A stretch of 58,229 bases of DNA from the NCBI GenBank assembly GCA_017631385.1, contig JAGBTH010000140.1, positions 1-58,229 on the forward strand, in the 5' to 3' direction. Of this stretch, positions 203 to 51,068 are shown in pieces. A program made the position numbers and the translations under genes. The notes beneath the pieces were generated by a model. It had not been told where the DNA came from, did no database searches, and worked only from the letters and a program-made list of their open reading frames with translations. This DNA is from Kiritimatiellia bacterium. GTDB lineage: Bacteria; Verrucomicrobiota; Kiritimatiellia; RFP12; UBA1067. Positions within the stretch are counted from its first letter, which is position 1; each line of letters begins with the position of its first letter.

Positions 203-457
203 TCATTCCTCATCAGGGGTTTGTTTAGTTACTTTCTTGTACTTATTCAAGAAGTCGTATTTGATTATTTCATCAATAGCTCTTTCAATCTCTTCATCGC
301 ACTCCACTTGAGACATGTCGTCTTCAATGTTTGCGATTCTCATAAGAAGTGATGAACTATTGTGACCTTTTTCCATATCAAACTCATTCCAAAGGTCGAA
401 TTGTTCAAATGGATCAAAAGGATTGTCGAATGTTGTTAATGCACATTGCTTTGACAT
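203..457 (-). CDS. hypothetical acidic protein (84 aa)
   Basis: ORF abuts the upstream gene with a 3-nt gap and is co-oriented. No motif recognised. Confidence 0.55.
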   Translation of the reverse strand: MSKQCALTTFDNPFDPFEQFDLWNEFDMEKGHNSSSLLMRIANIEDDMSQVECDEEIERAIDEIIKYDFLNKYKKVTKQTPDEE

Positions 458-460
458 CTG

Positions 461-3235
461 TTAATTCGCTCCTTTCAAATAGTTGGATACAGTTGATGTA
501 GATACACCTAGGGCTTTAGCTATCTCCGTTAAGCTATAGTTAGAGTTACTCATAGCCTTAGCTTTAGCTATCTTAGCTGTACTAAGTGTAGTGGTAGCTT
601 TGGGGGTAGCTCTTGCTCTAAGGCTGTCCGCATCCGAGTATTTTAGTATCTTTTTAAGTGATTCTTCGCTAATAGCGCCTGCCTGTATTGCTTCCCACTC
701 TCTATCTGTTATAGTGATGGGGTTTCTTTTAGCTCCTACGGTATCGCGGTACTTGGTAAGAGCCTGTTGCTTAGCTTTCTTTATATCACCCTTTTTCATG
801 GTAGGATCTGAAGCAACTTTTTTATTAACATCAGAGGTGGCTAATAGCTGGGCCATTCTCTCACGTGGTGCGTTGAGCTCCGAATCATTAAGTTTGCTCA
901 TTAGATCATCTACTTCTTTCTTATAGATGGTCTTAGCAGAGGCCTTATATTCTATCTTACCTGCCCTCATCATTTCAACACGGGCCTGGTTAGCAAGGGA
1001 CTTCATTTTATTTGCATAGTCCGCGTAAGCTCTTTCCTGAGGGGTGTTAAAATCTGAAACGAGGGTGTAAGCATCATCAGTTTCGGCCATCTTCGTACTC
1101 TGCTGGTGTCTTTTCTTAGTAACAAGTGTTACCTCGCCGGTCTTTTTATTGACCTTTTTCTGCGTGTAGTATAAGTCATCAGCAGGGCTATATATTAGAG
1201 AACCTTCAGGTCTTGTCGGATCATACCAACTCTTACCCTCAATGTTTACTTTAGGCGAGCCTTGTCTCTTGTCGACCGACACCTGTGACTTGGCTCTAGA
1301 TATTAAGGTGGAAGCTCCACCAGAACCGTCGTCATCTTGGTGCTTCTGATATTTCTTTTTTAACGAAGCTATGTTGTTATCAATTTCACTTTGTTTATAG
1401 TCGAGCTTATGCTTCGCCGCGTCTATAACAACCATGCTATGACGAACGGCTGCTGCTAACTCGTCTGTTGAAGCACCCTTAAGGGTCATATCCGTAATAA
1501 GATTAGATATCTGTCCCATCTGAGACTGAGTGTTATCTTTTCCGGTTTTAGGATCCTTCATATATTTCATTCCGGGTCTTTCGGGATACTGCCCTTTTGG
1601 GTCGAAGCCTTCGAGACCTTTGAGTTTATCCGTAGAGGTTACTTTCACCTTTCCCGATTTGTCATGTGTGGGGATACACATAACGGTATCTCCGTCAAAG
1701 TCGGCACCGGATAATCTTTCAGCAACCTTAGCATTTATACATACGGCGTCGATCGGAGTTGTGCCGATTAACTTTTTACCCATAGGGTTTTTATTGTTTA
1801 CGGTACAAATAGGAATCTCAAACGTTCCACCATGAGGATATCTTACTAAGGCTAATTTAGTACCCTGCTCGTAACCGGGTGCATATATCTCGTTATCCTT
1901 TAATGTATTATTAGGGATAATAACATGATATTTCTGACCAGGAAGAGCGGCTGCTTGTAAGTGAGCGGCTGCTTTATCGCAATCCTCAGCAAACGAATTT
2001 AAGAAATGCTTTTTAACTGTTGGATTGTTAAGCGACATGATCTCATCATATTCTGCTGTTTTATCCACAACTGCTAAATTTAACTGTTTCTTAATCATCG
2101 GCATACTCTGCTTAGATAAGAACTGAGATGGTAATTTATCTTGCCACTCAGACCAGTCACCTTCTTCTGCTCTTTTATTAATAAGAGACAGTTGCTTATT
2201 ACCATCCTTATCGATGTAATAGCTTTGACCGTTTGCCTTAATGAGCGAGCCGAAGGGGTTGTCTGGATCGTTCTTTATATCTTTAAGAACATCCATCTTC
2301 GAGACGTTAGATTTCTTATTAGTGTTAAATATAACGTCGACGCCGTCGGGCATGTCGTCTGAATATACAGCCATACCCTTTATGTATTTAGTATCATCTA
2401 CTAATATACGAACCTGAGCGTAACGCTTACCTTCTCCTAAATATAAATCATCAACACCTCTTCTGATCTCGACAACGCCATCCTTATCGATACCGCCATC
2501 TTCTGCATACCTAATTTGAAGACGCTTAGAATCCATACTCTTAGGATATACAAATTTGTCAAACGATTCACCGCCGTCATGCGATGTATAGTCTTTTAAA
2601 GAATGAATATTATCGGGATTATATATCTCTTTATGCTCGGTGCCGGGAGGACACAGAACTTTAAGCGTTGTGTGTTTTCCAGCATTGGTAACCTGCTCGA
2701 TTCTTCCACCGTATACAGGATATCCTTCCAACTCCAGAATATTGAGCGCCTGGTTGAGTTTCTCCTTAGAAATATTAAGTTCTCTCTCAACGCCTGCTCC
2801 GACGTCAATCATACCTTTTTCTTTAACTCGTTCACGAAGAAAGTCGGCTGTCTCTTTCGCCTTGTTCATTCTTTCTTCCGATTTATCGTTAAACCAGGAT
2901 CTGACCGTCGATTCGTTAACGCCCATCTGTCTACCTATTTCGGTGTCATTAAGACCATCGGCTCTTAACGATTTCGCTCTAGCTACGTTTAAAGCTCTTC
3001 GCTCAGCTCTTGCCAAACCTTTTTCGGTTCGGTATTGAGTGGTGGTTAAACCAAACTCCTCTTTTATATTCTCAGGGGTCTCTTTCCAACCGGTCTTTTT
3101 TAATTCCTCAACACGAGACAGAAAGTCTCTAGATCTTTGATAAGGGTCTTCACCAGAACCCCAAGGATATCGACCAGAACGTTTAGGCATTCCGTAATGC
3201 ATTATCTCGTTCATTTCGTCCACAACGTGATTCAT
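461..3235 (-). CDS. putative single-subunit two-barrel RNA polymerase (YonO/RdRP-like) with N- and C-terminal HTH modules
   Basis: Motifs LALVRYPHGGTFEIPICTV, AERLSGADFDGDTVMCIPTHD, MGQISNLITDM and VVIDAAKHKLDY. Compare beta-prime RAPTLH...NADFDGDQMAVHVP and the RdRP DxDGD...AVDxxK signature. HTH-like LNDTEIGRQMGVNESTVRSWF and YSLTEIAKALGVSTSTVSNYLKG. RBS GAGGGGG upstream. Confidence 0.7.
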   Translation of the reverse strand: MNHVVDEMNEIMHYGMPKRSGRYPWGSGEDPYQRSRDFLSRVEELKKTGWKETPENIKEEFGLTTTQYRTEKGLARAERRALNVARAKSLRADGLNDTEIGRQMGVNESTVRSWFNDKSEERMNKAKETADFLRERVKEKGMIDVGAGVERELNISKEKLNQALNILELEGYPVYGGRIEQVTNAGKHTTLKVLCPPGTEHKEIYNPDNIHSLKDYTSHDGGESFDKFVYPKSMDSKRLQIRYAEDGGIDKDGVVEIRRGVDDLYLGEGKRYAQVRILVDDTKYIKGMAVYSDDMPDGVDVIFNTNKKSNVSKMDVLKDIKNDPDNPFGSLIKANGQSYYIDKDGNKQLSLINKRAEEGDWSEWQDKLPSQFLSKQSMPMIKKQLNLAVVDKTAEYDEIMSLNNPTVKKHFLNSFAEDCDKAAAHLQAAALPGQKYHVIIPNNTLKDNEIYAPGYEQGTKLALVRYPHGGTFEIPICTVNNKNPMGKKLIGTTPIDAVCINAKVAERLSGADFDGDTVMCIPTHDKSGKVKVTSTDKLKGLEGFDPKGQYPERPGMKYMKDPKTGKDNTQSQMGQISNLITDMTLKGASTDELAAAVRHSMVVIDAAKHKLDYKQSEIDNNIASLKKKYQKHQDDDGSGGASTLISRAKSQVSVDKRQGSPKVNIEGKSWYDPTRPEGSLIYSPADDLYYTQKKVNKKTGEVTLVTKKRHQQSTKMAETDDAYTLVSDFNTPQERAYADYANKMKSLANQARVEMMRAGKIEYKASAKTIYKKEVDDLMSKLNDSELNAPRERMAQLLATSDVNKKVASDPTMKKGDIKKAKQQALTKYRDTVGAKRNPITITDREWEAIQAGAISEESLKKILKYSDADSLRARATPKATTTLSTAKIAKAKAMSNSNYSLTEIAKALGVSTSTVSNYLKGAN

Positions 3236-3239
3236 GATG

Positions 3240-3800
3240 TTAAACCCCCTCGTAATCTATTTTGTCTAGCATTTTATCCAAATATACGATTCGATCCATG
3301 ACAGGTACGATCTCGTCTACAGTTGGATTGTGGTATAAAATTTTATCATTCTGATAGATTCTAAGTTCGATCTCTTTTAGATCAGAAGGTTTGATTTTAT
3401 ACTCCAAACAAAAAAGAGCAGTATATACTAATAGCTGCTCCATCTTGGCTGGTGTTTTACCAGTCTTTAAGTCATGTATTCTAAGTACACCATTTCTAAA
3501 AGAAATAGCGTCTGCTGTACCGAAGAATCTATCGGAATAATATAAGACGACTTCAGTGCTCATCTTAAATCCGATAGCGTCGTTTACATAAGCATACAGA
3601 GTCTTAGCCGACTTAGGCTGTTTGATACCCAAATCGATGGTGCTCTTAGCCCAAGCGTGAAGAATGGTTCCTCTTTCGGTGGCTTTCATTTCAGTATATG
3701 ATTGTACGACTTTATCGTCGTCATACCTCAGCCAGCTAGATTTACTTGCGCTAAACGGCGCGTGTAAGCCTTCGTATTGAGTATGTTTAATAAACTTCAT
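3240..3800 (-). CDS. PD-(D/E)XK family nuclease (RecB/Cas4-like fold, no Cys cluster)
   Basis: GTADAISF...LRIHDLKTGK (D...D-x-K) followed by QLLVYTALF (QxxxY). Confidence 0.65.
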   Translation of the reverse strand: MKFIKHTQYEGLHAPFSASKSSWLRYDDDKVVQSYTEMKATERGTILHAWAKSTIDLGIKQPKSAKTLYAYVNDAIGFKMSTEVVLYYSDRFFGTADAISFRNGVLRIHDLKTGKTPAKMEQLLVYTALFCLEYKIKPSDLKEIELRIYQNDKILYHNPTVDEIVPVMDRIVYLDKMLDKIDYEGV

Positions 3801-3812
3801 AAATATCTCCTT

Positions 3813-4115
3813 TTACTTAAATACTTTTTGAAGTTCTTTCAAAACCTCGTTTTTGTTCTCCGGATATATGAATCTAGAGAAAGACATTTTATTCAGTAGT
3901 TCAACATAGTCTTCTTGATTAGGCTGTCTCGCCGCGGTGGCATGTTTTTTACACTCTAAGATCGCCCACTTATTTTTAAACAAAATTAAAAGGTCAGGAA
4001 TTCCTTGAATATAACTAGAATCGAGTTTCATAATAAGACAACCCTTAAATAAGTTTGTTAACTCTTTTATGAGATTGTCCTGAAATCCGCTCTCTAGTCT
4101 AGAACTTCGAGCCAT
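3813..4115 (-). CDS. VRR-NUC domain nuclease
   Basis: GIPDLLILFKNKWAILECKK...QPNQEDYVELL matches the VRR-NUC PD..(D/E)xK core. It is the first gene behind the motif at 4194..4222. Confidence 0.7.
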   Translation of the reverse strand: MARSSRLESGFQDNLIKELTNLFKGCLIMKLDSSYIQGIPDLLILFKNKWAILECKKHATAARQPNQEDYVELLNKMSFSRFIYPENKNEVLKELQKVFK

Positions 4116-4193: not shown

Positions 4194-4222
4194 TTCATAA
4201 CAGTCCATGTTTTTTTCGCGAA
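4194..4222 (-). promoter_or_regulatory. tripartite promoter-like motif, copy 1
   Basis: Minus strand: TTCGCG-AAAAAAACATGGACTGT-TATGAA. It lies between the terminator at 4234..4276 and the VRR-NUC gene. Confidence 0.6.
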
Positions 4223-4233
4223 TTTTGAGACAG

Positions 4234-4276
4234 CAAAAAATAAAAGAGAGTGTAAGTATTACTCACACCCTCTCTC
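4234..4276 (-). terminator. rho-independent terminator
   Basis: Minus strand: GAGAGGGTGTGAG-loop-CTTACACTCTCTT followed by TTTATTTTTT. Confidence 0.65.
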
Positions 4277-4711: not shown

Positions 4712-5010
4712 AATATGTTCTCCTTTAAATATGTGATAGTGACCTTTCGGTCCATAAAAGGAGATGCTGGTAACGCGACTAAAATTTTGCCTAAAATTCG
4801 TCTTTGGTCATTTGCCCACTTTTATTTCTATATTATATATTTTTAAAATTTTTATTTTCACATAAAATAGGGAGAAAAAGTGGGTTTTTGACCAGAACTC
4901 AAATTTTTCTTCAAAAACACCTCAAAATGGGTCCAAAACAGCCCAAAAACGCCCTTTTTTAGCCTTTTTCGACCATTTTTCACGATTTTTCTCTGCCCAC
5001 TTTTATTTTC

Positions 5011-5033
5011 AAAAGTGACCAAAAGCCCACTTT
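5011..5033. repeat. 23-nt direct repeat, copy 1 (AAAAGTGACCAAAAGCCCACTTT)
   Basis: Identical to 5085..5107. Confidence 0.9.
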
Positions 5034-5084
5034 TTTTGACCAAAAACGGTCACCCTTGATCGAAACGCACACAAATGGTCAAAT

Positions 5085-5107
5085 AAAAGTGACCAAAAGC
5101 CCACTTT
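5085..5107. repeat. 23-nt direct repeat, copy 2 (AAAAGTGACCAAAAGCCCACTTT)
   Basis: Identical to 5011..5033. A partial third copy, AAAAGTGACCAC, lies at 5115..5126. Confidence 0.9.
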
Positions 5108-5132
5108 CCAAATCAAAAGTGACCACAAATTT

Positions 5133-5612
5133 TTACTTCCCGAACATGTAAATATCCCGGTTTCCGAGCTTCGTAGCCTCCGCTTCAAGCCAGAAATCGT
5201 CGTACTTACCTAACCTGTCACCATAGCCACGACTCGTCATAAATATCCTGTACCAATATCTCAAAGCGCTAGCGATAGTGAAGAATACCATTACCGGACC
5301 GTACATAGCGTTCTGTATAGAATGACCGAGCTCGTGTCTTTTGGTCGCGCCATTCGCGCCTCTGTGAGTTATGATAAACATACCTAAGCACAACCCGCCC
5401 CAATTGCGTCCGATCTCGAAATGCCAGCAGCCAGCATACTTCCTCGGTCTTTTACCGATCAGTAACAAACCAAGTGCAGCGATGGCTCCGACAATATTCA
5501 TGAGAAGACCCCATGTGAGATTGAGAGTATAATATACTCTACGGTACTCACTCGGCTTCACTGGTCTCGCCTTCGTCAGCGCTGTCTTTATTTTCTGAAT
5601 CAGATTTCTCAT
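5133..5612 (-). CDS. membrane protein with HExxH zincin motif
   Basis: Two or three hydrophobic segments plus TKRHELGHSIQNAMYGP. GGAG lies upstream of the ATG at 5612. The start overlaps the upstream gene by 65 nt, so it is uncertain. Confidence 0.55.
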   Translation of the reverse strand: MRNLIQKIKTALTKARPVKPSEYRRVYYTLNLTWGLLMNIVGAIAALGLLLIGKRPRKYAGCWHFEIGRNWGGLCLGMFIITHRGANGATKRHELGHSIQNAMYGPVMVFFTIASALRYWYRIFMTSRGYGDRLGKYDDFWLEAEATKLGNRDIYMFGK

Positions 5613-9747: not shown

Positions 9748-9776
9748 TTCATAAAGGAGTGTGTTTGCGACGCGAA
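9748..9776 (-). promoter_or_regulatory. tripartite promoter-like motif, copy 2
   Basis: Minus strand: TTCGCG-TCGCAAACACACTCCTT-TATGAA. Confidence 0.6.
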
Positions 9777-12820: not shown

Positions 12821-15800
12821 TTAGTTTTTAGGTACAATTTTTCCACCCACGAACGGTGGTGAAATATAAGGCTCGTCGGAAACGAACCAATAGAAATCGC
12901 CGTACTTACCTATTGCGTCGATAGCGGCGTCTACCAACTTGTCATAATATGATCTATCGATGTCGGCTTCTTTTCCGGCATTCTTGACCATCTCTGACTC
13001 GAGCCAACGATAACCCTTCGATCCGGTTGCGGCTGAGAATTTGACATTACCGTCTCGATCCTTACCCTCACGAAGAAGCTCTCCGCCTCCGCATCCAGGC
13101 TTGATGGGACAGAAACTACCAACCTTTCCTACGAACTGATAGTCGTGGTCGTCCGCGAGAGTCTCGTTAAGATCCAAATATAGCGCCGAGCTTACGGATT
13201 TGGTCTCACACATATCAGTGAACTCTATAGGTTCTTTACTAAAGAGTTTCTTAAATACATATGGAACCTGGAACTGCGTACCGGTTGCGGTCCACTGTCC
13301 AGCTTCTTTACCGTCCTTATACTTGGCGATATATACCGCATCATTAACCAGACACATCCTATCGTAAGTAGCCTCATGCTCGAATGTGTAGCCGTACTGC
13401 TTACCATAGTCCATGATAAACTGAATTATCTCAGGGGTCGCATCGGGAATCTTGATCGAATCCGTCTTAATATGAGCCACGGTGTATCCTCTACTCTGAA
13501 CCTCGTGCTTAAGGTTGATCATGAACAGAGCTCCACGCTTGGCTACGATATTATCGATATTTCTGGGATCGCGGAACGGATTATCAAACGCGGCTGAGGT
13601 CAGACCGTAAACCGAGTTGATGGCGATCTTCAGCGCCTGAGCCAGATCCTTTGCTTTAGATTCGTCGTCCAAATATGGAGCGAGCTTGCCGTCCAGCATA
13701 GCTCTAGCCTTGTCGAACTCGCCGTGTTTTATTGCCACGCGAGCGTCTCTTATTTCCTGGAACCGCCTGGTGTACTCTGCGCCAAATAACTGCTCGGCAA
13801 TAATGCTAGCCGGATGCATCGAAGCAATATCCAGCAGCGCTACGTTACCGTACATACCCGGCTCAGAATATACGTAGCCACCCTCGCCTACTTCTTCTCC
13901 GCGATATATGGATTTACCGTTTTCGAATTTGTATCCGGGGAATATGGGTCTTCCGTCCTTGTCGAATACTGTGTAACCGTCTCCGAACTGGTTGTACCAT
14001 ACGTCATCGTCGGTCATGGTGAACCTATAGTGCTCCTCGGGCATTTCTCCCATATTTCTATAGTTGAATTGATCCTGAGGGTTGCGGTTGTTACCAAATA
14101 TAATTCTGGTAGTCAGAGAGTTCGTGGTGTCATTAACACACATGCCAGCCACATCGGCTAGAATCTGTCTAGCGATGAAATCGGCTTTGAGGTGGTTAAA
14201 TACCTTCTCGGTCGCAATAACGTCGTTATCACAATATTCCGCAACTTTGGTCCACATCGACTCCGGTACCGGCTTATCCCACGGTAAACCTAACTCTTGG
14301 TGGTGTATACCCAGCTCAATCTCCCATTTTTTCAGGGATTGCTTGGTGGCAGCAAAGTCGTAAACGTCCGTATACGATAAGTTATAAGCCTCTCCAAAGA
14401 ATGCGTTCTTACTTCCGCTAATTATCTTTTGAGATAGACCGTATAACTGCTCGTTCGTATAACCCATGAGTCGAGCGTAGAGAATATGATTATCGTATCG
14501 TCTACAGTTGAATCCTACCAACCTGAACTTCAGAATATCTTCGATTTCAGAAGGACTCGGGTTGATCATTCGAACAACCGGCTTTCCTTCACCCTCGACC
14601 TTCCAGTTGACCAGGAATAAGTTCGGGAATACCTCGACGTCGTAGAACACGAGCATCGCATTGTCGTTTCGTACGTTTTCAGAAGGGTCGTCTGATTTGA
14701 ATTGCATCTTGTTTACCAACTTGATACAATATTCGGCCTGATTGGTACTGTTTGCGGCAAACGCAAATATGGCATTGCGCATATCGGAAACGTCGTACTT
14801 CAAGCCATTTGCGTGAGCGTCTTCTAATATCTTATAGATAAAGTCGATACTCGGTTTGGTCCCAGGATGAATCTCTTTGTTAAGATTTCTCTTAATGAGA
14901 GTCCTAAGGCCTTTTTCGCTTTGAATAGCTTCGAAATTGACCAACTTACCATCTCCTTTCAGCGGTAATCCGGAGCTGATCGTAGCGATCGGTAAGTCGT
15001 TGCACTTAGTAAGCATTCGTCTCAGTGAGCTCTTCCCACTGAACACTTTTACTTCTATATGATCGTCATATATGCTGCTAAGCTTAGTGGGGTCACCAGA
15101 GTAAATATAATGAAGATGTATACCTTGGCCGCTTTTACTTACCTCGGCGTACGTAGGCGGCCATTTACTAGCCTCTTCAAGATTTTTTTCGAAGCACTTA
15201 TTGCCGTTTTCGTCCGGAATATCAAAGTCTATAACAATATGGTTTTCGGGAACCTTTACGAAGTGGAGCCTGGAGGTATCCAAATCTTTTAGGGCGGTGG
15301 TAACATTGTCCCACTTCTTGAATGGCGTCCCTTTTTCACTGGCGTATTGCGCTGGACAATCGACGCATTCAGCATCCAATATAGACTCTATCTCCTCGAA
15401 TCGAATACGCGTATCGGTAGATTTCTCCTTCTTACCTTTGGTTTGGGTGGTTTCAAATTTATCAGTCCTGAAACCGCTATAATAGCTGCGGACTCGAGAA
15501 CCGTCGTCCAGGTTAAACCTATCGTTGAACTCCCAAAAATAGTTTTTAAGCTCTTCTTTAAAGCTTCTTTGTGATAACGGATAAGGAACCTTCGCGTCAT
15601 CACAATATGTTTTGTACATTTCCCAGGCGGCCTTGAGTGTCGTGCCGTCCTCTTTTTTGAATACGTGATACGAGTCGATAACATAGTTGTAGAAATCGTT
15701 AGAAGCGCCAAGCATAGCTACGGGAATATAATTGTCGTACTTACCCGGATCGTCCAAATATATTTCCTTACAATGCCAAGCTATATGTCCTAACTCGAAC

Positions 15801-16777
15801 GCAACCTGCTTCATTATCGTACTGTATTCTTTAGGGTTTAATTTTTTACCAGACGGAGTTACGTCGATAAGCCTTCGTATAAGACCCGACTTCGCGTCCG
15901 TAATTTTTACCGGTTTATTCGTACCCATAAATAAGAAGCTCATGAAGCGGGTTGTATACCGGCCTTTGAACTTCTCATTAACAGTCATTTCTTCGTGAGA
16001 AACTAAACTGTTTAGTCTAGTGTTGTCTTCTATCCTAGATAGATCTCCATCGTGCTGAATTGCTACTAATGGGTTGGTTTTAAATGCTTCCAACGCGAAT
16101 TGGTCGCTACCCGAACCCAGGGCCCTAGCATCAAATACCGAATAATATCCCTCAAATAGTTGCTGAATAATATTCAAGATAGTCGATTTACCAGTTCCGG
16201 CGGCACCATATAGAACCATGAATTTCTGTAGATATTTCGATTCTCCAGATATAATTGAACCTATAGCCCACTCTATCTTATGTCTCTCTTCTTCTGAATA
16301 TAAAGTAGATATAAGCTTGTCATAAGCCGTAATAGGTCCGGGTTCTAATGGATAGCTAAGCCGTTTGCTGGCGTAATCTTTTTTATTAGTATCGTCGTTC
16401 GAGAATACGAGTTTTTCATCCAATGGTCGGAAAGAATCCCTCATCTGTTTCTGACAATACTTATGCCACTTATCGATCATTCCACTGTCGGCGTCACACA
16501 TATGCATGACCCTGACGGTGCCTTCGAATTTGTGCTTATTTTCTTTGTAATAAGCGTCAAGTTCTCGGTCGATAAGTTGCAAAGCATCTTGTTCTTTTGT
16601 GGACCATAAACCAAGATCTTCGAGCCAAATCGCATAAAAGTCGCGGCCTCGAATCATTAGATCAGAACTTTCACAAATCATAAACTTTGGATAGATTTCA
16701 TAGACATCACGTTTTGGTGAGCGCGTTGAAATCTTCAAAAAGTCGATCATTTCATCCCCAATACTCCTTTCATGCAA
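12821..16777 (-). CDS. fusion replicase: SF3 (D5/P4-type) helicase + AEP prim-pol domain + family B DNA polymerase
   Basis: Helicase: GAAGTGKST, IQHDGD, FLFMGTN. AEP: HIVIDFD, SGQGIHLHY. Exonuclease: FYDVEVF, RRYDNHIL, YCDNDV. Polymerase: LDIASMHPAS, KIAINSVYG, IKTDSI. Confidence 0.9.
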   Translation of the reverse strand: MHERSIGDEMIDFLKISTRSPKRDVYEIYPKFMICESSDLMIRGRDFYAIWLEDLGLWSTKEQDALQLIDRELDAYYKENKHKFEGTVRVMHMCDADSGMIDKWHKYCQKQMRDSFRPLDEKLVFSNDDTNKKDYASKRLSYPLEPGPITAYDKLISTLYSEEERHKIEWAIGSIISGESKYLQKFMVLYGAAGTGKSTILNIIQQLFEGYYSVFDARALGSGSDQFALEAFKTNPLVAIQHDGDLSRIEDNTRLNSLVSHEEMTVNEKFKGRYTTRFMSFLFMGTNKPVKITDAKSGLIRRLIDVTPSGKKLNPKEYSTIMKQVAFELGHIAWHCKEIYLDDPGKYDNYIPVAMLGASNDFYNYVIDSYHVFKKEDGTTLKAAWEMYKTYCDDAKVPYPLSQRSFKEELKNYFWEFNDRFNLDDGSRVRSYYSGFRTDKFETTQTKGKKEKSTDTRIRFEEIESILDAECVDCPAQYASEKGTPFKKWDNVTTALKDLDTSRLHFVKVPENHIVIDFDIPDENGNKCFEKNLEEASKWPPTYAEVSKSGQGIHLHYIYSGDPTKLSSIYDDHIEVKVFSGKSSLRRMLTKCNDLPIATISSGLPLKGDGKLVNFEAIQSEKGLRTLIKRNLNKEIHPGTKPSIDFIYKILEDAHANGLKYDVSDMRNAIFAFAANSTNQAEYCIKLVNKMQFKSDDPSENVRNDNAMLVFYDVEVFPNLFLVNWKVEGEGKPVVRMINPSPSEIEDILKFRLVGFNCRRYDNHILYARLMGYTNEQLYGLSQKIISGSKNAFFGEAYNLSYTDVYDFAATKQSLKKWEIELGIHHQELGLPWDKPVPESMWTKVAEYCDNDVIATEKVFNHLKADFIARQILADVAGMCVNDTTNSLTTRIIFGNNRNPQDQFNYRNMGEMPEEHYRFTMTDDDVWYNQFGDGYTVFDKDGRPIFPGYKFENGKSIYRGEEVGEGGYVYSEPGMYGNVALLDIASMHPASIIAEQLFGAEYTRRFQEIRDARVAIKHGEFDKARAMLDGKLAPYLDDESKAKDLAQALKIAINSVYGLTSAAFDNPFRDPRNIDNIVAKRGALFMINLKHEVQSRGYTVAHIKTDSIKIPDATPEIIQFIMDYGKQYGYTFEHEATYDRMCLVNDAVYIAKYKDGKEAGQWTATGTQFQVPYVFKKLFSKEPIEFTDMCETKSVSSALYLDLNETLADDHDYQFVGKVGSFCPIKPGCGGGELLREGKDRDGNVKFSAATGSKGYRWLESEMVKNAGKEADIDRSYYDKLVDAAIDAIGKYGDFYWFVSDEPYISPPFVGGKIVPKN

Positions 16778-20428: not shown

Positions 20429-20457
20429 CTCATAATACCGTTTGTTTTTTTCGCGTT
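20429..20457 (-). promoter_or_regulatory. tripartite promoter-like motif, copy 3
   Basis: Minus strand: AACGCG-AAAAAAACAAACGGTAT-TATGAG. Confidence 0.55.
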
Positions 20458-22517: not shown

Positions 22518-22546
22518 TTCATAAAGGGGTATGTTTTTTTCGCGAG
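22518..22546 (-). promoter_or_regulatory. tripartite promoter-like motif, copy 4
   Basis: Minus strand: CTCGCG-AAAAAAACATACCCCTT-TATGAA. Confidence 0.6.
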
Positions 22547-22858: not shown

Positions 22859-22887
22859 CTCATAAAATAGCCTGCGTTTTCCGCGAC
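22859..22887 (-). promoter_or_regulatory. tripartite promoter-like motif, copy 5
   Basis: Minus strand: GTCGCG-GAAAACGCAGGCTATTT-TATGAG. Confidence 0.55.
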
Positions 22888-23858: not shown

Positions 23859-23887
23859 CTCACAATAGAGGTTGTCATTATTGCGAA
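23859..23887 (-). promoter_or_regulatory. tripartite promoter-like motif, degenerate copy 6
   Basis: Minus strand: TTCGCA-ATAATGACAACCTCTAT-TGTGAG. Same spacing and CA position, with two substitutions. Confidence 0.4.
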
Positions 23888-24485: not shown

Positions 24486-24514
24486 GCCATAAAAGGCAGT
24501 GCTAAGTTCGCGAT
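24486..24514 (-). promoter_or_regulatory. tripartite promoter-like motif, copy 7
   Basis: Minus strand: ATCGCG-AACTTAGCACTGCCTTT-TATGGC. Confidence 0.5.
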
Positions 24515-24730: not shown

Positions 24731-24759
24731 TTCATAAATGAGGGTGTTTGCTTCGCGAA
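24731..24759 (-). promoter_or_regulatory. tripartite promoter-like motif, copy 8
   Basis: Minus strand: TTCGCG-AAGCAAACACCCTCATT-TATGAA. The 3' box directly abuts the SD sequence AGGAGG. Confidence 0.6.
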
Positions 24760-24905: not shown

Positions 24906-24934
24906 TTCATAAGAACCAATGTAAAAACCACGAA
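24906..24934 (-). promoter_or_regulatory. tripartite promoter-like motif, variant copy 9
   Basis: Minus strand: TTCGTG-GTTTTTACATTGGTTCT-TATGAA. The 3' box abuts the SD sequence AGGAGG. Confidence 0.45.
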
Positions 24935-25182: not shown

Positions 25183-25211
25183 TTCATAAAGGAGCATGTT
25201 AATTTCGCGAT
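25183..25211 (-). promoter_or_regulatory. tripartite promoter-like motif, copy 10
   Basis: Minus strand: ATCGCG-AAATTAACATGCTCCTT-TATGAA. It overlaps the 3' end of the regulator gene. Confidence 0.6.
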
Positions 25212-25895: not shown

Positions 25896-27536
25896 ATGTA
25901 TAGGGAATATCCAACATTTACACCAGAAGAAATACTAGAATATGACCGGAAGTCTAGGTTCGACGACCCACTTCTATCGGTCGAGGAGCAGCTCGCAAAG
26001 CACGAACAAATGCTGGACGAATACGCTAGACGCTATTTTGGAGGACCAGTACCGCCGGGCAATAAATATAAGGAGGTCGGTAGCGGAGAAACCCTCAAAT
26101 CAAGACCAGAAGTAAATAAGGTTTTACGACGTATCGAAAAGCCAGATATTAAAGGCGTATTAATCGTAGACGTACAACGTTTATCTCGCGGTAATCTCAA
26201 GGATGCTGGTAAACTTATTGAACTGTTTCAGTTTTCGAATACGTACGTAATCACGCCGTATAAAATATACGACATTCGCGACGAGTATGATCGTGACGCA
26301 TTCGAGCGAGAGCTGAAACGAGGTAACGAGTATCTCGAATATTTCAAGAAAATACAGATGCGCGGTAAATTAGCAAGTGTTAAGGAGGGTAATTATGTGG
26401 GATCCGTAGCCCCGTTCGGATTCGATCGTATTAAGAAAATGTATCCAGACGGCAAACGGCACTATTGGACTTTAACCGAAAAACCCGAAGAGGCGGTGAT
26501 CGTACGTACCGTATTTGACTGGTATTGTAACGACGGCGTGGGCGTATCAACTATATGTAGACGTTTGGAAAAGATGGGGGTCGCGGCCAAAAGCGGTAAA
26601 GTCAAATGGACCCCGGGAGCTATATACAATATGATAGAGAATGTGCATTATATCGGCTACGTAAGATGGAATTGGAGAAAGGTTATAAAAATAATAGAAG
26701 ATCAAGAAGTCAAAGTGTTGCGTCCGCACGCTAAGGACGGAGAATATTTGATATTCGAGGGCAAGCACGAGGGGTTAATATCCGAGGAATTATTCAAGAA
26801 AGCAAAACAAATTAGGGGTTCTAAACCTCGCAGCCACGTAGACAACTCGCTTAAAAATATACTAGCCGGCTTGGTTTATTGCAAATGCGGATATAGTCTC
26901 GTTCATAATACGTATGTACAAAACGGAGTAGAACTCGCAGCGCCCAAACTAAAATGCAGTAATCAGGTACATTGTAAAAGTGGATCGGTCGACTATAAAG
27001 AAATCGTAGATCGAGTGCGCGAATCCCTTCATGAGGCTATCGAGAATTTCGAAATAAGAGTAGTAAACGACCAAGCAGACTCGGCTAAACTTCATAAAAG
27101 TTTGATAAAGAGTCTCGAACGAAAGTTGGTAAAATTAAAAGAACAAGAGCTTCTGCAATGGAAAGCTCAGACTGATCCAGACCCAGCCAAACGAATGCCG
27201 GAGGAAATATTCAAAACTCTGAATGAGAATTTGCGTAAAGAGAAATCCGATCTCGAAGAAGCGCTGAGTGAGGCGTACGAGTCCTTACCGGAACCTATAG
27301 ATTACGAAGAGAAAATAGTTCAATTCACCGACGTATTAAATATTATGGACGATCCGAACGTGTCTGTTGAAGATAGAAATATGTATTTGAAGGATATAAT
27401 AGAGCGCATAGATTATAGACGTGACCCATATATTCAAGTCACCAGAGATAATTATGAGAAATTAGGCGCACCGAAACCGAAACGAGGTTTAACGTGGTTC
27501 GCCCCACCATTCGAGATCGAATTACACCTGAGATAA
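25896..27536 (+). CDS. large serine recombinase (integrase)
   Basis: N-terminal resolvase-type domain (YDRKSR...SVEEQ, VLIVDVQRLSRG), recombinase domain, Cys-rich zinc ribbon (CKCGYSL...LKCSNQVHC) and a C-terminal coiled coil. It is the only plus-strand gene. Confidence 0.9.
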   Translation: MYREYPTFTPEEILEYDRKSRFDDPLLSVEEQLAKHEQMLDEYARRYFGGPVPPGNKYKEVGSGETLKSRPEVNKVLRRIEKPDIKGVLIVDVQRLSRGNLKDAGKLIELFQFSNTYVITPYKIYDIRDEYDRDAFERELKRGNEYLEYFKKIQMRGKLASVKEGNYVGSVAPFGFDRIKKMYPDGKRHYWTLTEKPEEAVIVRTVFDWYCNDGVGVSTICRRLEKMGVAAKSGKVKWTPGAIYNMIENVHYIGYVRWNWRKVIKIIEDQEVKVLRPHAKDGEYLIFEGKHEGLISEELFKKAKQIRGSKPRSHVDNSLKNILAGLVYCKCGYSLVHNTYVQNGVELAAPKLKCSNQVHCKSGSVDYKEIVDRVRESLHEAIENFEIRVVNDQADSAKLHKSLIKSLERKLVKLKEQELLQWKAQTDPDPAKRMPEEIFKTLNENLRKEKSDLEEALSEAYESLPEPIDYEEKIVQFTDVLNIMDDPNVSVEDRNMYLKDIIERIDYRRDPYIQVTRDNYEKLGAPKPKRGLTWFAPPFEIELHLR

Positions 27537-27655: not shown

Positions 27656-28099
27656 TTATGGATTATCGGGCTCCGCATACAGGTAATCACCATGCGCCCT
27701 AACTTTGGAGTAGATTTCATGCACATACACATTACCCATCTTGTCTTTCAAGGTTGTCGTTATATACTGTCGACCGTCGGCTTCATACTCTGGTTCGATA
27801 TCTACGGTATATTTCTTGGACAACGTTTTGGCGTATTTAGTACACCATCTCAGTCCAGTACTAGCCCGAGTTGCAAGAAACGAGAGTGCCTCGTCGGGGA
27901 TCGTAGCGTTACCTCGATCTTTTTGAGCCTTCAACTGACGATACATGACAAGTTCGCGATGCGCGCGTGCATAGTGTTCGGATAGTTTCCGTACTTCTTT
28001 GTTGGTCTTGTAACCGAGCTGCTCTGGAGTACGTCTAACGCCCCACTTCATACCTTTGACTCCGTGATGATAGAGCACATTGTTATATATCCACATCAT
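27656..28099 (-). CDS. YH(Y/H)GV.GMKWGVRR-tag protein, paralogue 1 (147 aa)
   Basis: N-terminus MMWIYNNVLYHHGVKGMKWGVRRTPEQ. It is the last gene of arm 2, next to the candidate attP. Confidence 0.65.
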   Translation of the reverse strand: MMWIYNNVLYHHGVKGMKWGVRRTPEQLGYKTNKEVRKLSEHYARAHRELVMYRQLKAQKDRGNATIPDEALSFLATRASTGLRWCTKYAKTLSKKYTVDIEPEYEADGRQYITTTLKDKMGNVYVHEIYSKVRAHGDYLYAEPDNP

Positions 28100-46990: not shown

Positions 46991-47467
46991 TCAACGTATA
47001 GTACCAAACATCGTATCTATAGGCGTACGCAAAAATTTAATCATATCGGGTACGGCCGATATGATATCCCAATTGTCCTTTGTAAATTTTGCCAGCTCGA
47101 CCGTATCTGCTATGAGTTTAGCTCCTCCGATCACTCCCAACGCGGTCAAGGCGACGCGGGCGCCGCGGCTCATTTGGGTAGCGCGTTTTGCTTCTTTGTA
47201 TTCAGCCTTTGCCGCTTTAGTGGCTTCTCTGAACTTCTTTTCCGCAGCTGACGATCGAGCTAAGTCTTCCTTCGAAAGAGTCTGACCTCTCTTATAAGAT
47301 TTTTCGATATCGTTGATTTCGCGCTCGTACTCATCAAACGCATCTTTTGTGCGTTTCTTATACGTACGCTTAGCTTCTTTCCTTAAAGCTCTTCTTACTC
47401 CCCACTTCATTCCGGGTACGCCGTAATGGTAGAGTTCGTTAGACGTTGTATGGTTATAAGCCCACAT
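46991..47467 (-). CDS. YHYGVPGMKWGVRR-tag protein, paralogue 2 (158 aa)
   Basis: N-terminus ...NELYHYGVPGMKWGVRRALRKE, a basic coiled coil and a C-terminal hydrophobic segment. Confidence 0.65.
   Translation of the reverse strand: MWAYNHTTSNELYHYGVPGMKWGVRRALRKEAKRTYKKRTKDAFDEYEREINDIEKSYKRGQTLSKEDLARSSAAEKKFREATKAAKAEYKEAKRATQMSRGARVALTALGVIGGAKLIADTVELAKFTKDNWDIISAVPDMIKFLRTPIDTMFGTIR
47408..47440. repeat. 33-nt repeat identical to 49574..49606
   Basis: CATTCCGGGTACGCCGTAATGGTAGAGTTCGTT, which encodes NELYHYGVPGM. Confidence 0.9.
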
Positions 47468-49246: not shown

Positions 49247-49615
49247 TTACTTCTTAATAAACGCGGAAGCTACCTTTTTGCCGGCTTTAACCAGTTTGTT
49301 GCTGTTATCGTAAAGGGTGCACACCGTACCCATAACGGCAGCGGCGCCTATTACATAACCCCAACCCTTTTTCACAGCATTCGGATTTAGGCTCTTATAC
49401 TCTCTTTCGAGTCTGGTTCTCTCGTTAAGAGCCCTGATTTCAGCATTACTCATCTGCTTGAGGCTTTTACGTTTCGTCTCGGAAGCAGCTCTGGCCTCGG
49501 AGGACCAGTTTTCCGACTCGGCACGACGTTTGTTTCTGTCGGCTGTTTTTTGACGTCTTCTCACACCCCATCGCATTCCGGGTACGCCGTAATGGTAGAG
49601 TTCGTTGTTGTACAT
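49247..49615 (-). CDS. YHYGVPGMRWGVRR-tag protein, paralogue 3 (122 aa)
   Basis: MYNNELYHYGVPGMRWGVRRRQK, a basic region and a C-terminal hydrophobic GWGYVIGAAAVMGTVCTL. Confidence 0.65.
   Translation of the reverse strand: MYNNELYHYGVPGMRWGVRRRQKTADRNKRRAESENWSSEARAASETKRKSLKQMSNAEIRALNERTRLEREYKSLNPNAVKKGWGYVIGAAAVMGTVCTLYDNSNKLVKAGKKVASAFIKK
49574..49606. repeat. 33-nt repeat identical to 47408..47440
   Basis: Exact identity read directly from the sequence. Confidence 0.9.
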
Positions 49616-50713: not shown

Positions 50714-50724
50714 TTCGCATCACC

Positions 50725-51054: not shown

Positions 51055-51068
51055 TTTGAATTTTCTCC

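What the first reader, a model, noticed from the sequence alone, without database searches (positions are those of the whole stretch)
461..3235. Candidate YonO/RdRP-type two-barrel RNA polymerase carrying two HTH modules
Seen: the 924-aa ORF contains four motifs in order. They are KLALVRYPHGGTFEIPICTV, INAKVAERLSGADFDGDTVMCIPTHD, QMGQISNLITDM and SMVVIDAAKHKLDY.
Established: the catalytic double-psi beta-barrel of RNAP beta-prime reads RAPTLH...NADFDGDQMAVHVP. The same R.P...DxDGD...(A/I)D..K pattern marks eukaryotic RdRPs (QDE-1/RDR) and the phage single-subunit enzymes YonO (SPbeta) and crAss-like gp66.
Also seen: two sigma-region-4/LuxR-like HTH strings. One is near the N-terminus (LNDTEIGRQMGVNESTVRSWF) and one is in the last 25 aa (YSLTEIAKALGVSTSTVSNYLKG).
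Inference: this is a self-sufficient phage RNAP with built-in DNA-recognition modules. I do not know that architecture from YonO or gp66. The gene is the last large gene of arm 1, directly before the virion arm, which is where a late-gene polymerase would be expected.
Basis: partly seen in the sequence, partly recalled or inferred. Interest (0 to 1): 0.85.

Follow-up and report, generated by a model that had tools for sequence, protein, structure and literature searches.

The report
Phage two-barrel RNA polymerase with HTHs
This phage gene encodes a single-chain RNA polymerase distantly related to cellular RNA polymerases. The family and its two DNA-binding modules were already predicted in print, but I found a phage-specific promoter-like motif, shared across host phyla, that makes its promoter recognition testable.

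Summary
A 924-aa ORF (461-3235, minus strand) contains all four motifs and both HTH strings. R465-x-P467 and D512-F-D-G-D516 are invariant in 55 homologues.

The AlphaFold models match only two-barrel polymerases (QDE-1, RDR2, phage P74-26 gp62, P23-45 gp96) and DPBB domains.

The architecture is not new. The "1706 family" of YonO-like proteins was defined in 2010. HTH domains at both ends plus DxDGD were reported in 2021. PHROG 4291 matches full-length. The family holds about 1,260 clusters at 50% identity.

The "late-gene polymerase" inference is not supported:
- A long conserved promoter-like motif (TCGCR-N6-ACA-N4/7-TATAAT-like) occurs 8-15 times per genome.
- It lies only on the coding strand of the early/replication arm, and directly upstream of the nuclease-polymerase operon.
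- It is shared by Lactococcus, Gordonia, Streptomyces and Arthrobacter phages and this window.
- It co-occurs with the polymerase among 50,697 phage records.
- Homologues in phages 1706 and ReqiPoco6 are annotated as virion proteins.

Best model: a promoter-specific DNA-dependent RNA polymerase, possibly delivered in the virion, that drives early/middle genes. Biochemistry is untested.

The parts
461..3235 (-). 924-aa single-subunit two-barrel RNA polymerase of the '1706-type' YonO-like family (PHROG 4291)
   Evidence: ORF. PHROG 4291 matches full-length, E=0. Foldseek hits to QDE-1, RDR2 and RNAP large subunits. Family of 1,263 clusters at 50% identity.
3152..3211 (-). N-terminal tag, aa 9-28: NEIMHYGMPKRSGRYPWGSG. 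Predicted disordered and family-invariant. Resembles the DUF7211 tag.
   Evidence: H13, Y14, G15, S20, G21, R22, Y23, P24, G26, S27 and G28 are invariant. pLDDT is below 50 for aa 1-35. hhalign against DUF7211 N-termini gives probability 59%, E=9e-5 over 12 columns. There is no direct Pfam hit.
2888..2983 (-). N-terminal helix-turn-helix module (aa 85-116)
   Evidence: Pfam HTH_23, E=2e-10. Helices 97-104 and 108-114 in the model. Conserved across lineages.
2162..2530 (-). First beta-barrel (beta-subunit-like DPBB), aa ~236-358. Candidate active-site residues are D252, R276 and K286.
   Evidence: Strand pattern in the model. These residues are invariant. Their assignment to QDE-1 D709/R738/K743 is inferred from order and spacing only.
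1661..1939 (-). Second beta-barrel (beta-prime-like DPBB), aa ~433-525. Carries R465-Y-P467 (nt 1835-1843) and the metal-binding loop D512-F-D-G-D516 (nt 1688-1702).
   Evidence: Invariant residues. RxP lies 45 residues before DxDxD, against 43 in QDE-1. Foldseek.
1409..1531 (-). Conserved helical hairpin, aa 569-609 (QMGxISNLITDM ... HSMVVIDAxKH). Possibly the bridge-helix equivalent.
   Evidence: Helices 569-585 and 590-609. M573, G574, N578, L579, D582, M583, H599, D605 and K608 are invariant. The functional assignment is inferred.
470..559 (-). C-terminal helix-turn-helix module (aa 893-922)
   Evidence: Pfam HTH_3, HTH_38, Sigma70_r4 and Sigma70_r4_2, E=1e-6 to 1e-5, marginally above gathering scores. 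PHROG 664.
4194..4221 (-). Promoter-like motif TCGCGAAAAAAACATGGACTGTTATGAA, heading the VRR-Nuc / Cas4 / polymerase operon
   Evidence: A syntenic copy is present in relatives L005, L006 and L007. It is found in 40 of 65 IMG/VR loci, median 985 nt upstream of the polymerase start, against 6 on the opposite strand and 2 after shuffling.
4242..4276 (-). Strong intrinsic terminator (16-bp stem plus T-run) ending the preceding unit
3813..4115 (-). VRR-Nuc-like endonuclease, first gene of the operon
   Evidence: PHROG 93. Syntenic 'VRR-Nuc domain protein' in actinophages.
3240..3800 (-). Cas4-family exonuclease. Its stop lies 4 nt before the polymerase start.
   Evidence: PHROG 3953, E=4e-71. Synteny.
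203..457 (-). 84-aa acidic protein that always follows the polymerase gene (PHROG 4303). Function unknown.
   Evidence: Syntenic small gene in 1706, Tanis, BenitoAntonio, Soshi, Roney, Namo and SscP1EGY. No Pfam hit.
4751..4778 (-). Promoter-like motif copy
9748..9775 (-). Promoter-like motif copy, downstream of the helicase gene
   Evidence: A syntenic copy is present in L007.
20429..20456 (-). Promoter-like motif copy
22518..22545 (-). Promoter-like motif copy, directly after a terminator hairpin
22859..22886 (-). Weaker promoter-like motif copy
23859..23886 (-). Weaker promoter-like motif copy
24486..24513 (-). Weaker promoter-like motif copy
24731..24758 (-). Promoter-like motif copy. It follows a terminator and directly abuts the RBS AGGAGG.
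24906..24933 (-). Promoter-like motif copy. It follows a terminator and directly abuts the RBS.
25183..25210 (-). Promoter-like motif copy, first of the early arm, next to the integrase region

Best explanation
The gene encodes a single-polypeptide, two-barrel RNA polymerase of the 1706-type YonO-like family. Its catalytic core is a beta-like DPBB followed by a beta-prime-like DPBB with the RxP and DFDGD signatures. DNA-binding HTH modules flank the core at both ends.

Most likely it is a DNA-dependent, promoter-specific transcriptase. I infer that it recognises a long phage-specific promoter on its own, with the HTH modules as the obvious candidates for reading the upstream elements. The promoter reads TCGCR-N6-ACA followed by a TATAAT-like box. 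In this clade it is TCGCGAAAAAAACA-N7-TTATGAA.

These promoters head about 11 short, terminator-bounded units in the early/replication arm. The last of them heads the VRR-Nuc / Cas4 / polymerase operon. No terminator separates that last unit from the joined genome ends or from the tightly packed virion arm. Late genes could therefore be reached by read-through once the genome is circular or concatemeric, as in lambda.

Homologues are annotated as virion proteins. The enzyme is therefore probably made late, packaged, and injected to start early transcription.

Status of each step:
- Shown: the fold class, the invariant catalytic residues, the HTH modules, the existence of the motif, its strand and arm bias, its cross-phylum conservation, and its co-occurrence with the gene.
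- Inferred: DNA-dependent activity, that this enzyme reads the motif, the role of the HTHs, virion delivery, and read-through.
For: Fold:
- The full-length AF2 model has pLDDT 80. Foldseek gives QDE-1 at E=4e-8, RDR2 at 1e-5 to 1e-3, then RNAP largest subunits.
- The core-only model matches P74-26 gp62 (1.6e-5), RDR2 and P23-45 gp96, plus p97 N-domain DPBBs at about 3.5 A over roughly 100 residues.
- Catalytic residues are invariant.
- PHROG 4291 matches full-length.
- The YonO precedent is a processive DNA-dependent RNAP (PMC5467207).

Motif in this window:
- 8 strict matches against 0.05 expected, and 11 weight-matrix matches against 0.35.
- All are on the coding strand and all lie between 4 and 25 kb.
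- Each lies 10-80 nt before an RBS and ATG. Four follow terminators.

Motif in other lineages:
- The repeat finder picked it up independently in 1706 and Tanis.
- The shared half-element then found it in BenitoAntonio and Soshi. There the TATAAT box, which was not part of the search pattern, also appeared.
- There are no copies in the left or virion arms of 1706 and Tanis.
- A syntenic copy precedes the polymerase operon in 40 of 65 IMG/VR loci, against 6 and 2 in controls.

Co-occurrence:
- The motif is in 102 of 50,697 phage records: Gordonia 55, Streptomyces 40, Rhodococcus 4, Arthrobacter 3.
- The polymerase is in Gordonia 55, Streptomyces 54, Rhodococcus 4, Arthrobacter 95.
- 3 of 3 spot checks were positive.
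- The 1706-type motif occurs only in 1706-like phages.

Not host-type:
- The hexamer spacing is 13 nt in 1706, Tanis and Soshi.
- The box in this window lacks the final T.
- Sigma-70-type matches are not enriched.
- The same motif serves hosts of 35% and 67% GC.

Virion: orf75 of 1706 and the ReqiPoco6 homologue are annotated as structural proteins, although they lie outside the morphogenesis module.

Operon map.
Against: - No biochemical or transcript data exist for any member in the searchable literature.
- Motif and polymerase could co-occur simply because both are inherited traits of one phage supercluster.
- Another conserved phage factor, or host RNAP, could read the motif. The actinophage version contains a perfect TATAAT, and the window version has sigma-70-like 16-nt spacing.
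- This phage carries an integrase (25896-27536, plus strand). Prophage induction would have to start without any virion enzyme.
- Virion association rests on database annotations. I could not read the primary papers.
- 25 of 65 IMG/VR loci lack a recognisable copy upstream of the polymerase gene. Soshi has only a degenerate one, and 1706 has a different repeat-rich region there.
- Global TM-scores are low (0.29-0.39).
- No sequence-level match was found to YonO, Pfam RdRP or any PDB chain.
Confidence: 0.6

Rival explanations
1. This is a non-virion, YonO-style late polymerase. Host RNAP makes it from the replication arm, and it then transcribes the virion arm from promoters of its own.
For: YonO transcribes the SPbeta late genes. 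The gene lies immediately upstream of the virion arm across the joined ends, with no terminator in between. Sigma-70-like promoters are not enriched in the virion arm (20 found against 28.5 expected), so something other than host RNAP may transcribe it.
Against: No repeated phage-specific motif occurs in the virion arm of this window, 1706 or Tanis. The only such motif is in the early/replication arm and in front of the polymerase's own operon. Homologues are annotated as virion proteins. A hybrid remains possible, in which the same enzyme reaches late genes by read-through from the promoter at 4194-4221.
Confidence: 0.2
2. Host RNAP, or host RNAP plus another conserved phage factor, reads the motif. 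The two-barrel protein does something else with nucleic acids. It could synthesise primers or RNA on single-stranded DNA during replication or recombination, in keeping with its VRR-Nuc and Cas4 neighbours. Or it could act mainly as an HTH regulator.
For: QDE-1, the best structural match, works on single-stranded DNA and on RNA (PMC9508822 abstract). The gene is translationally coupled to nucleases. The actinophage motif contains a perfect TATAAT. The window motif has 16-nt hexamer spacing. The phage is probably temperate.
Against: The upstream half of the motif is identical in spacing in phages of Lactococcus and of three actinobacterial genera, which argues against host sigma specificity. 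The phage already encodes a fused primase-polymerase. The invariant catalytic triad argues against a purely regulatory role.
Confidence: 0.12
3. It is a true RNA-dependent RNA polymerase, as many database records call it, and it amplifies or copies phage or host RNAs.
For: PHROG 4291 and GenBank product names. The nearest solved structures are the eukaryotic RdRPs QDE-1 and RDR2. HHpred matches Pfam RdRP at 95.7% probability, as reported in 10.1101/842583.
Against: The name derives only from remote homology. YonO, the only characterised bacterial or phage relative of this group, is DNA-dependent. Ruprich-Robert & Thuriaux note that no RNA-mediated control of this kind is known in bacteria. Two or more DNA-binding HTH modules and a promoter-like DNA motif fit a DNA template better.
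Confidence: 0.05

Closest known systems
'1706 family' of YonO-like proteins (Ruprich-Robert & Thuriaux 2010), equal to PHROG 4291 and to the HTH/RdRP-like signature protein of the actinophage-Firmicute supercluster (bioRxiv 10.1101/842583)
   Same: Full-length homology at 38-56% identity to isolate phage proteins. Same length, HTHs at both ends and catalytic motifs. Same position at the right genome end, after VRR-Nuc and Cas4 and before a small gene.
   Different: Nothing essential. This is a divergent metagenomic member: the best isolate or MAG phage record is 55.8% identical, and the exact protein is filed in NCBI under a Kiritimatiellae MAG. Its clade uses a promoter variant with a 3-nt longer spacer and TTATGAA in place of CTATAAT.
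YonO of Bacillus prophage SPbeta
   Same: A single-chain two-barrel RNAP of about 100 kDa from a siphophage, lacking most msRNAP domains. YonO is a proven processive DNA-dependent RNAP.
   Different: No detectable sequence or profile similarity (hhalign probability 0.4%). I saw no report of terminal HTH modules in YonO. YonO is a late-gene enzyme, and its promoter and any cofactor requirement are unknown. Here the candidate promoters are early/middle, and homologues are annotated as virion proteins.
Eukaryotic RNA-silencing polymerases QDE-1 and RDR2
   Same: Best structural neighbours of the full-length model (E=4e-8 and 1e-5). Same order of barrels in one chain. RxP to DxDGD spacing is 45 residues here and 43 in QDE-1.
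   Different: TM-score is only 0.25-0.29 at 9-11% identity. There is no Pfam RdRP hit by HMMER. The setting is a phage, with HTH modules, and the template is probably double-stranded DNA.
Virion and non-virion two-barrel RNAPs of phages P23-45/P74-26 (gp96, gp64/gp62) and the crAss-like gp66
   Same: Single-subunit two-barrel phage RNAPs that read phage-specific promoter motifs. gp96 and gp66 are injected and transcribe the earliest genes. gp62 and gp96 are top hits for the core model.
   Different: No sequence similarity. gp96 is fused to the tape-measure protein and gp66 is a giant protein. Neither description I read mentions built-in HTH modules. Virion packaging here is only annotated, not shown.
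Bacterial sigma-70 region 4 and other simple HTH domains
   Same: The C-terminal HTH scores just above the Pfam gathering thresholds of Sigma70_r4 and Sigma70_r4_2. Bipartite promoter geometry.
   Different: A dozen unrelated HTH families score equally well, so this is a generic HTH. No sigma region 2 equivalent was detected.

Membership tests
Two-barrel (DPBB) RNA polymerase superfamily | Two double-psi beta-barrels forming one active site | tested here: met
   This rests on predicted structures only. Foldseek hits are exclusively two-barrel polymerases. One barrel also matches the p97/VCP N-domain DPBB at about 3.5 A over roughly 100 residues.
Two-barrel (DPBB) RNA polymerase superfamily | DxDxD metal-binding loop and RxP motif in the beta-prime-like barrel | tested here: met
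   D512-F-D-G-D516 and R465-Y-P467 are invariant in 55 sequences and in six lineages. The spacing is 45 residues, against 43 in QDE-1.
Two-barrel (DPBB) RNA polymerase superfamily | Acidic residue plus two basic residues from the beta-like barrel (QDE-1 D709, R738, K743) | tested here: inconclusive
   Invariant D252, R276 and K286 lie in the first barrel in the right order. No structural superposition was available to confirm equivalence.
Two-barrel (DPBB) RNA polymerase superfamily | Template-dependent NTP polymerisation | not testable with these tools
   Needs purified protein.
1706-type YonO-like family (PHROG 4291) | Full-length homology to Lactococcus phage 1706 orf75 and the actinophage orthologues | tested here: met
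   PHROG 4291 matches at E=0, covering aa 5-923 of the protein and 6-908 of 909 profile positions. tblastn finds 249 records covering at least 80% of the query.
1706-type YonO-like family (PHROG 4291) | HTH modules at both termini, and position at the right genome end after VRR-Nuc and Cas4 | tested here: met
   The catalytic core starts at about residue 225-300 in all full-length representatives.
YonO family sensu stricto (SPbeta) | Detectable sequence or profile homology to YonO | tested here: not met
   hhalign of the 55-sequence profile against YonO gives probability 0.4%. Only a single YonO sequence was used, so this test is weak.
YonO family sensu stricto (SPbeta) | Transcribes the phage late genes | not testable with these tools
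   Indirect evidence points elsewhere: the motif lies only in the early/replication arm.
Eukaryotic-type RdRP (Pfam PF05183) | Match to the Pfam model at its gathering score | tested here: not met
   hmmscan gives no hit, even at E<=10 on the core alone. An HHpred probability of 95.7% is reported by others.
Virion-packaged phage RNA polymerases (N4 vRNAP, crAss gp66, P23-45 gp96) | Protein present in the virion and ejected with the DNA | not testable with these tools
   The only evidence is 'structural protein' annotations for 1706 orf75 and the ReqiPoco6 homologue. The primary papers are not held.
Virion-packaged phage RNA polymerases (N4 vRNAP, crAss gp66, P23-45 gp96) | Conserved phage-specific promoters in front of the earliest genes | tested here: met
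   A long conserved motif sits in front of the early small-gene clusters in five lineages. That this enzyme uses it is inferred.
Sigma-70 region 4 | Specific match to the sigma r4 models rather than to HTHs in general | tested here: inconclusive
   PF04545 scores 25.1 bits against a cut-off of 24.1. PF08281 scores 26.9 against 25.7. HTH_3, HTH_38, HTH_11 and others score equally or better on the same residues.

The most novel reading that the evidence does not exclude
The 1706-type enzymes are self-sufficient, promoter-specific minimal two-barrel RNA polymerases. Their own HTH modules read a bipartite promoter (TCGCR-N6-ACA plus a TATAAT-like box). That promoter has been conserved with the enzyme across phages of Actinobacteria and Firmicutes. 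The enzyme is carried in siphophage virions, perhaps by way of the invariant N-terminal HYG...GRYPWGSG tag, which is related to the DUF7211 tags on packaging-module proteins. It launches host-independent early transcription. This would be the first two-barrel RNAP shown to combine catalysis and sigma-like promoter recognition in one small polypeptide.
Probability: 0.35. Interest if true: 0.8.

Novelty: new member of a known kind. Interest (0 to 1): 0.6.

Why it matters
Two-barrel RNA polymerases are the universal cellular transcription enzymes, and single-chain versions are viewed as models of their ancestor. For YonO, the only characterised bacterial or phage example of this group, the promoter and any cofactor requirement are still unknown (PMC5467207).

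The 1706-type family is large: about 1,260 clusters at 50% identity. It is present in hundreds of cultured, easily grown phages, including SEA-PHAGES actinophages and dairy lactococcal phages.

As shown here, it comes with a well-defined candidate promoter conserved across host phyla. That turns one question into a simple run-off, footprint and 5'-end-mapping experiment: how does a minimal two-barrel RNAP find promoters?

It would also correct widespread mis-annotation ('HTH DNA-binding protein', 'RNA-dependent RNA polymerase', 'structural protein'). It could also yield a compact, orthogonal transcription system that works in both high-GC and low-GC Gram-positive hosts.

Tried and rejected
Sequence searches that found nothing for the core:
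- phmmer and a family profile against PDB sequences returned only HTH or spurious hits.
- Pfam on the core alone at E<=10 returned nothing relevant.
- Pfam on the N-terminus, on aa 130-235 and on aa 640-924 returned only the C-terminal HTH.
- hhalign of the family profile against a single YonO sequence showed no relationship.

Promoter scans:
- Sigma-70-type promoter scans were not enriched over shuffles anywhere. I therefore rejected ordinary host promoters as the organising signal.

Structure:
- A core-only AF2 model, made to get better-normalised scores, was less confident (pLDDT 68 against 80). It still returned two-barrel RNAPs and DPBB domains.

Literature:
- I could not retrieve Garneau 2008 or Summer 2011, so virion detection is not verified from primary sources.
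- Searching for the motif strings and for DUF7211 found nothing relevant. The motif may still appear in figures, or in papers that are not held.

Other searches:
- A BLAST of the window-type motif against isolate phages gave no hit. This is possibly an effect of the low-complexity filter.
- The small 84-aa neighbour and the junction and left-arm proteins have no Pfam family, apart from a BspA-type LRR protein, a connector and the portal.

Considered and set aside:
- A primase, relaxase or terminase identity has no support in any search.
- A PolD-like DNA polymerase is unlikely. PolD was not among the Foldseek hits listed, and the phage has its own primase-polymerase fusion.

Full report
OBSERVATION

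The ORF is real. It runs 461..3235 on the minus strand, starts with ATG and encodes 924 aa.

Pfam sees only the two HTH modules. HTH_23 matches aa 85-116 at E=2e-10. HTH_3, HTH_38, Sigma70_r4 and Sigma70_r4_2 match aa 893-922 at E about 1e-6 to 1e-5. The sigma models score only marginally above their cut-offs, and many other HTH families score alike.

The catalytic-looking motifs are not chance. I aligned 55 homologues drawn from three searches (39-77% identical to the query). In that alignment R465, P467, D512-F-D-G-D516, D605 and K608 are invariant. They remain invariant across the window, Lactococcus phage 1706, Gordonia phage Tanis, Arthrobacter phage BenitoAntonio and Streptomyces phage Soshi.

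WHAT IT IS

PHROGs gives a full-length match (aa 5-923, E=0) to PHROG 4291, 'RNA-dependent RNA polymerase'. tblastn finds the protein in 250 phage records: Arthrobacter 95, Gordonia 55, Streptomyces 54, Lactococcus 13 and others. In the isolate genomes listed it lies at the right genome end. It is variously annotated 'HTH DNA-binding protein', 'RNA-dependent RNA polymerase', 'hypothetical' or 'structural protein'.

HMM-level searches do not connect the core to anything solved or to Pfam RdRP. A family profile against YonO gives nothing. The fold does connect it.
- An AlphaFold2 model built from the 55-sequence alignment has mean pLDDT 80.1.
- Foldseek retrieves QDE-1 (7y7r_A, E=4e-8, probability 1.0), plant RDR2 (E=1e-5 to 1e-3), and then only the largest subunits of archaeal, eukaryotic, bacterial and viral RNAPs.
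- BFVD returns phage proteins called RNA-dependent RNA polymerase.
- A core-only model (aa 225-640, pLDDT 68) retrieves the phage two-barrel RNAPs P74-26 gp62 (E=1.6e-5, TM 0.39) and P23-45 gp96, and RDR2. It also retrieves dozens of p97/VCP N-domains, the textbook double-psi beta-barrel, at about 3.5 A over roughly 100 residues.

Ruprich-Robert & Thuriaux list eight residues invariant in all two-barrel RNAPs. In QDE-1 these are D709, R738, K743, R962, P964, D1007, D1009 and D1011. Here R465-x-P467 lies 45 residues before D512-x-D514-x-D516, against 43 in QDE-1. The first barrel offers invariant D252, R276 and K286 in the right order. That last assignment is inferred.

A DPBB fold is predicted, the motifs are conserved, and no primase, relaxase or terminase signal appears.

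ALREADY KNOWN

The family is in the literature as a prediction.
- Ruprich-Robert & Thuriaux 2010 allocate YonO-like proteins to five families, one typified by phage 1706 (PMC2919709).
- The preprint 10.1101/842583 describes exactly this protein as the signature gene of a supercluster of actinophages plus 1706-like and Faecalibacterium phages. [quoted passage not shown]

I found no biochemical or transcriptomic study of any member.

The family is large and uniform. A search with the core alone gives 1,263 clusters at 50% identity, of which 691 score E<=1e-30. Full-length members are 900-1,090 aa, with the core starting near residue 225-300.

CONTEXT

Almost every gene in the window is on the minus strand. 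Read in the coding direction, the order is:
- unknown large proteins, a BspA-type LRR protein, a connector and a phosphoesterase;
- the large terminase, portal, protease-capsid fusion, tape-measure protein and tail genes;
- an oppositely oriented integrase;
- many small genes;
- a fused primase-polymerase and a helicase;
- VRR-Nuc, Cas4, the polymerase and an 84-aa acidic protein.

A second contig carrying the identical protein runs through the window's ends, so the assembly is circular or concatemeric. The block VRR-Nuc / Cas4 / polymerase / small gene / genome end is conserved in Tanis, BenitoAntonio, Soshi, Roney, Namo and SscP1EGY. Phage 1706 keeps polymerase / small gene / genome end.

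A PHAGE-SPECIFIC PROMOTER-LIKE MOTIF

The repeat finder turned up a family that reads TCGCGAAAAAAACA-N7-TTATGAA on the coding strand.
- A strict pattern gives 8 matches against 0.05 expected.
- A weight matrix gives 11 against 0.35.
- All are on the coding strand and all lie between 4.2 and 25.2 kb.
- Each lies 10-80 nt upstream of an RBS and ATG. Four directly follow terminator hairpins. In two copies the RBS abuts the motif, so the start site must lie at or within the motif's 3' end if that RBS is used.
- One copy (4194-4221) sits between a 16-bp-stem terminator (4242-4276) and the VRR-Nuc / Cas4 / polymerase operon.

The same copy is found at the same place in relatives whose polymerases are 73-76% identical. 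It is also found in 40 of 65 IMG/VR loci with 53-70% identical polymerases, against 6 on the opposite strand and 2 after shuffling. The median distance to the polymerase start is 985 nt.

Independently, the top repeat families of 1706 and Tanis are equivalent elements: at least 12 and 11-12 copies respectively, all on the coding strand. Many follow terminator-like T-runs, and most precede an RBS. Aligned at the ACA element, the lineages share element order and upstream spacing:
- 1706: TCGCA-N6-ACA-N4-CTATAGT-AGA
- Tanis and Soshi: TCGCA-N6-ACA-N4-CTATA(A/G)T-GAGACCCC
- BenitoAntonio: TCGCG-N6-ACA-N4-(C/G)TATAAT
- the window clade: TCGCG-N6-ACA-N7-TTATGAA

In BenitoAntonio and Soshi I searched only for TCGC[AG]-N6-ACA, and the TATAAT box appeared unasked. 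I found no copies in the left (lysis and packaging) ends of 1706 or Tanis, or in the virion arm of the window.

Among 50,697 phage records the actinophage-type motif occurs in 102, at 608 places: Gordonia 55, Streptomyces 40, Rhodococcus 4 and Arthrobacter 3. These numbers and names mirror the polymerase-bearing set. Three spot checks were positive. The 1706-type motif occurs only in 1706-like lactococcal phages.

The geometry does not fit host sigma-A or sigma-70. The hexamer spacing is 13 nt in 1706, Tanis and Soshi. The window's box lacks the final T. The same design also serves hosts of about 35% and 67% GC. Sigma-70-type matches are not enriched anywhere in the window. No paper in the library contains the motif strings. 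Genome papers I could not read may still mention individual repeat families.

HOW IT MOST LIKELY WORKS

The enzyme class is well supported. I infer from the motif data that it is a promoter-specific DNA-dependent RNAP whose cognate promoter is this motif. The terminal HTH modules are the natural candidates for reading the upstream elements.

Strong coding-strand terminators occur only in the 4-25 kb arm. None separates the last promoter (4194-4221) from the joined ends or from the tightly packed virion arm. In 1706 and Tanis the genes after the junction are lysis and packaging genes. A lambda-like read-through from the polymerase operon into the late genes is therefore plausible. It would put the polymerase gene in the late unit.

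That would fit the 'structural protein' labels on 1706 orf75 and on the ReqiPoco6 homologue. In 1706 that label otherwise falls on the morphogenesis module, apart from orf62 and orf71, so it is presumably experimental. Virion delivery followed by early transcription from the motif promoters is then the most economical reading. It parallels N4, crAss gp66 and P23-45 gp96.

Caveats:
- Co-occurrence may reflect common descent.
- Host RNAP or another phage factor might read the motif.
- This phage has an integrase, so induction must work without a virion enzyme.
- 25 of 65 IMG/VR loci, Soshi and 1706 lack a clear copy in front of the polymerase gene.

COMPARISON AND VERDICT

This is a new, divergent member of a known but experimentally uncharacterised family.
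- It works like YonO, QDE-1 and the phage two-barrel RNAPs.
- It is not a member of the YonO family proper, or of Pfam RdRP, by sequence tests.
The novelty claim and the 'late polymerase' role do not.

The cross-phylum promoter-like motif, its operon map, and the possible link between the invariant N-terminal HYG...GRYPWGSG tag and the DUF7211 tags are the parts that appear to be new and testable.

Noticed in passing
window 49247-49615 (-), 46991-47467 (-), 27656-28099 (-); Tanis L013 8831-9214, 9227-10069, ~6549 (inside gp12); L009 92-568: Three small, very basic proteins begin with the 25-aa Pfam DUF7211 motif (NELYHYGVPGMKWGVRR; E=3e-10 to 8e-12). Two of them bracket the large terminase. 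Gordonia phage Tanis has the same tag on gp14, gp15 and gp16, and internally in its phosphoesterase gp12. The polymerase's invariant N-terminal tag resembles it (hhalign probability 59%). It could be a common targeting or processing signal for packaged proteins. I found nothing published on DUF7211.
   Followed up: partly
window 4935-5107 (three 23-nt direct repeats spaced ~75 nt) within the non-coding stretch ~4780-5133; Soshi L011 44776-45225: Iteron-like repeats (coding strand AAAGTGGGCTTTTGGTCACTTTT) lie in a ~350-nt non-coding region a few hundred nt upstream of the nuclease-polymerase operon. Streptomyces phage Soshi has GCCACTTTT/AAAAGTGGC repeats in the equivalent 444-nt gap. 1706 has three copies of CTATCACGAAAAAAC... 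directly upstream of its polymerase gene. These are possibly a replication origin or a packaging site.
   Followed up: no
window 203-457 (-): An 84-aa acidic protein (PHROG 4303, no Pfam family) follows the polymerase gene in every lineage examined, as the last gene before the genome end. It is a candidate cofactor of the polymerase or an anti-host factor.
   Followed up: partly
window 25896-27536 (+): The only large gene on the opposite strand matches PHROG 95 'integrase' (E=6e-73), so this member is probably temperate. Phage 1706 and many of the actinophage relatives are lytic. The densest cluster of promoter-like motifs and terminators (22.5-25.2 kb) lies next to it.
   Followed up: no
window 53714-53821: About ten tandem copies of a 9-nt unit (CGCCACTAT on the + strand) lie inside the 694-aa ORF 53385-55469 (-). 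They would encode a 3-residue peptide repeat. That protein and its 631-aa and 178-aa neighbours have no recognisable family. The 178-aa and 631-aa genes share a duplicated upstream region and a 71-nt segment.
   Followed up: no
window 51887-53374 (-): A 495-aa protein carries BspA-type leucine-rich repeats (Pfam LRR_5, E=8e-43) in the block between the joined ends and the terminase. This is unusual cargo for that position.
   Followed up: no
window 12821-16777 (-): A 1,318-aa protein matches PHROG 4210 'DNA polymerase' (E=0) and several DNA primase families. It is the counterpart of 1706 gp55, which Kazlauskas et al. 2016 (PMC4889955) describe as an SF3 helicase / AEP primase / PolB fusion.
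   Followed up: partly
whole window; protein P0001: The identical polymerase protein is deposited in NCBI as 'MAG: helix-turn-helix domain-containing protein [Kiritimatiellae bacterium]'. The contig is a complete phage genome, so the MAG assignment is probably a binning artefact. The strong AGGAGG ribosome-binding sites suggest a Gram-positive-like host.
   Followed up: no
1706 L012 2139-3889; Tanis L013 5134-7043; window 49631-51090: In 1706 the phosphoesterase-like orf7 and the small orf6 just upstream of the terminase are annotated as structural proteins. Tanis gp11 is also annotated as a virion protein. The window has the same connector / phosphoesterase / DUF7211 / terminase order. A nuclease-like phosphoesterase in the virion would be unusual.
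   Followed up: no
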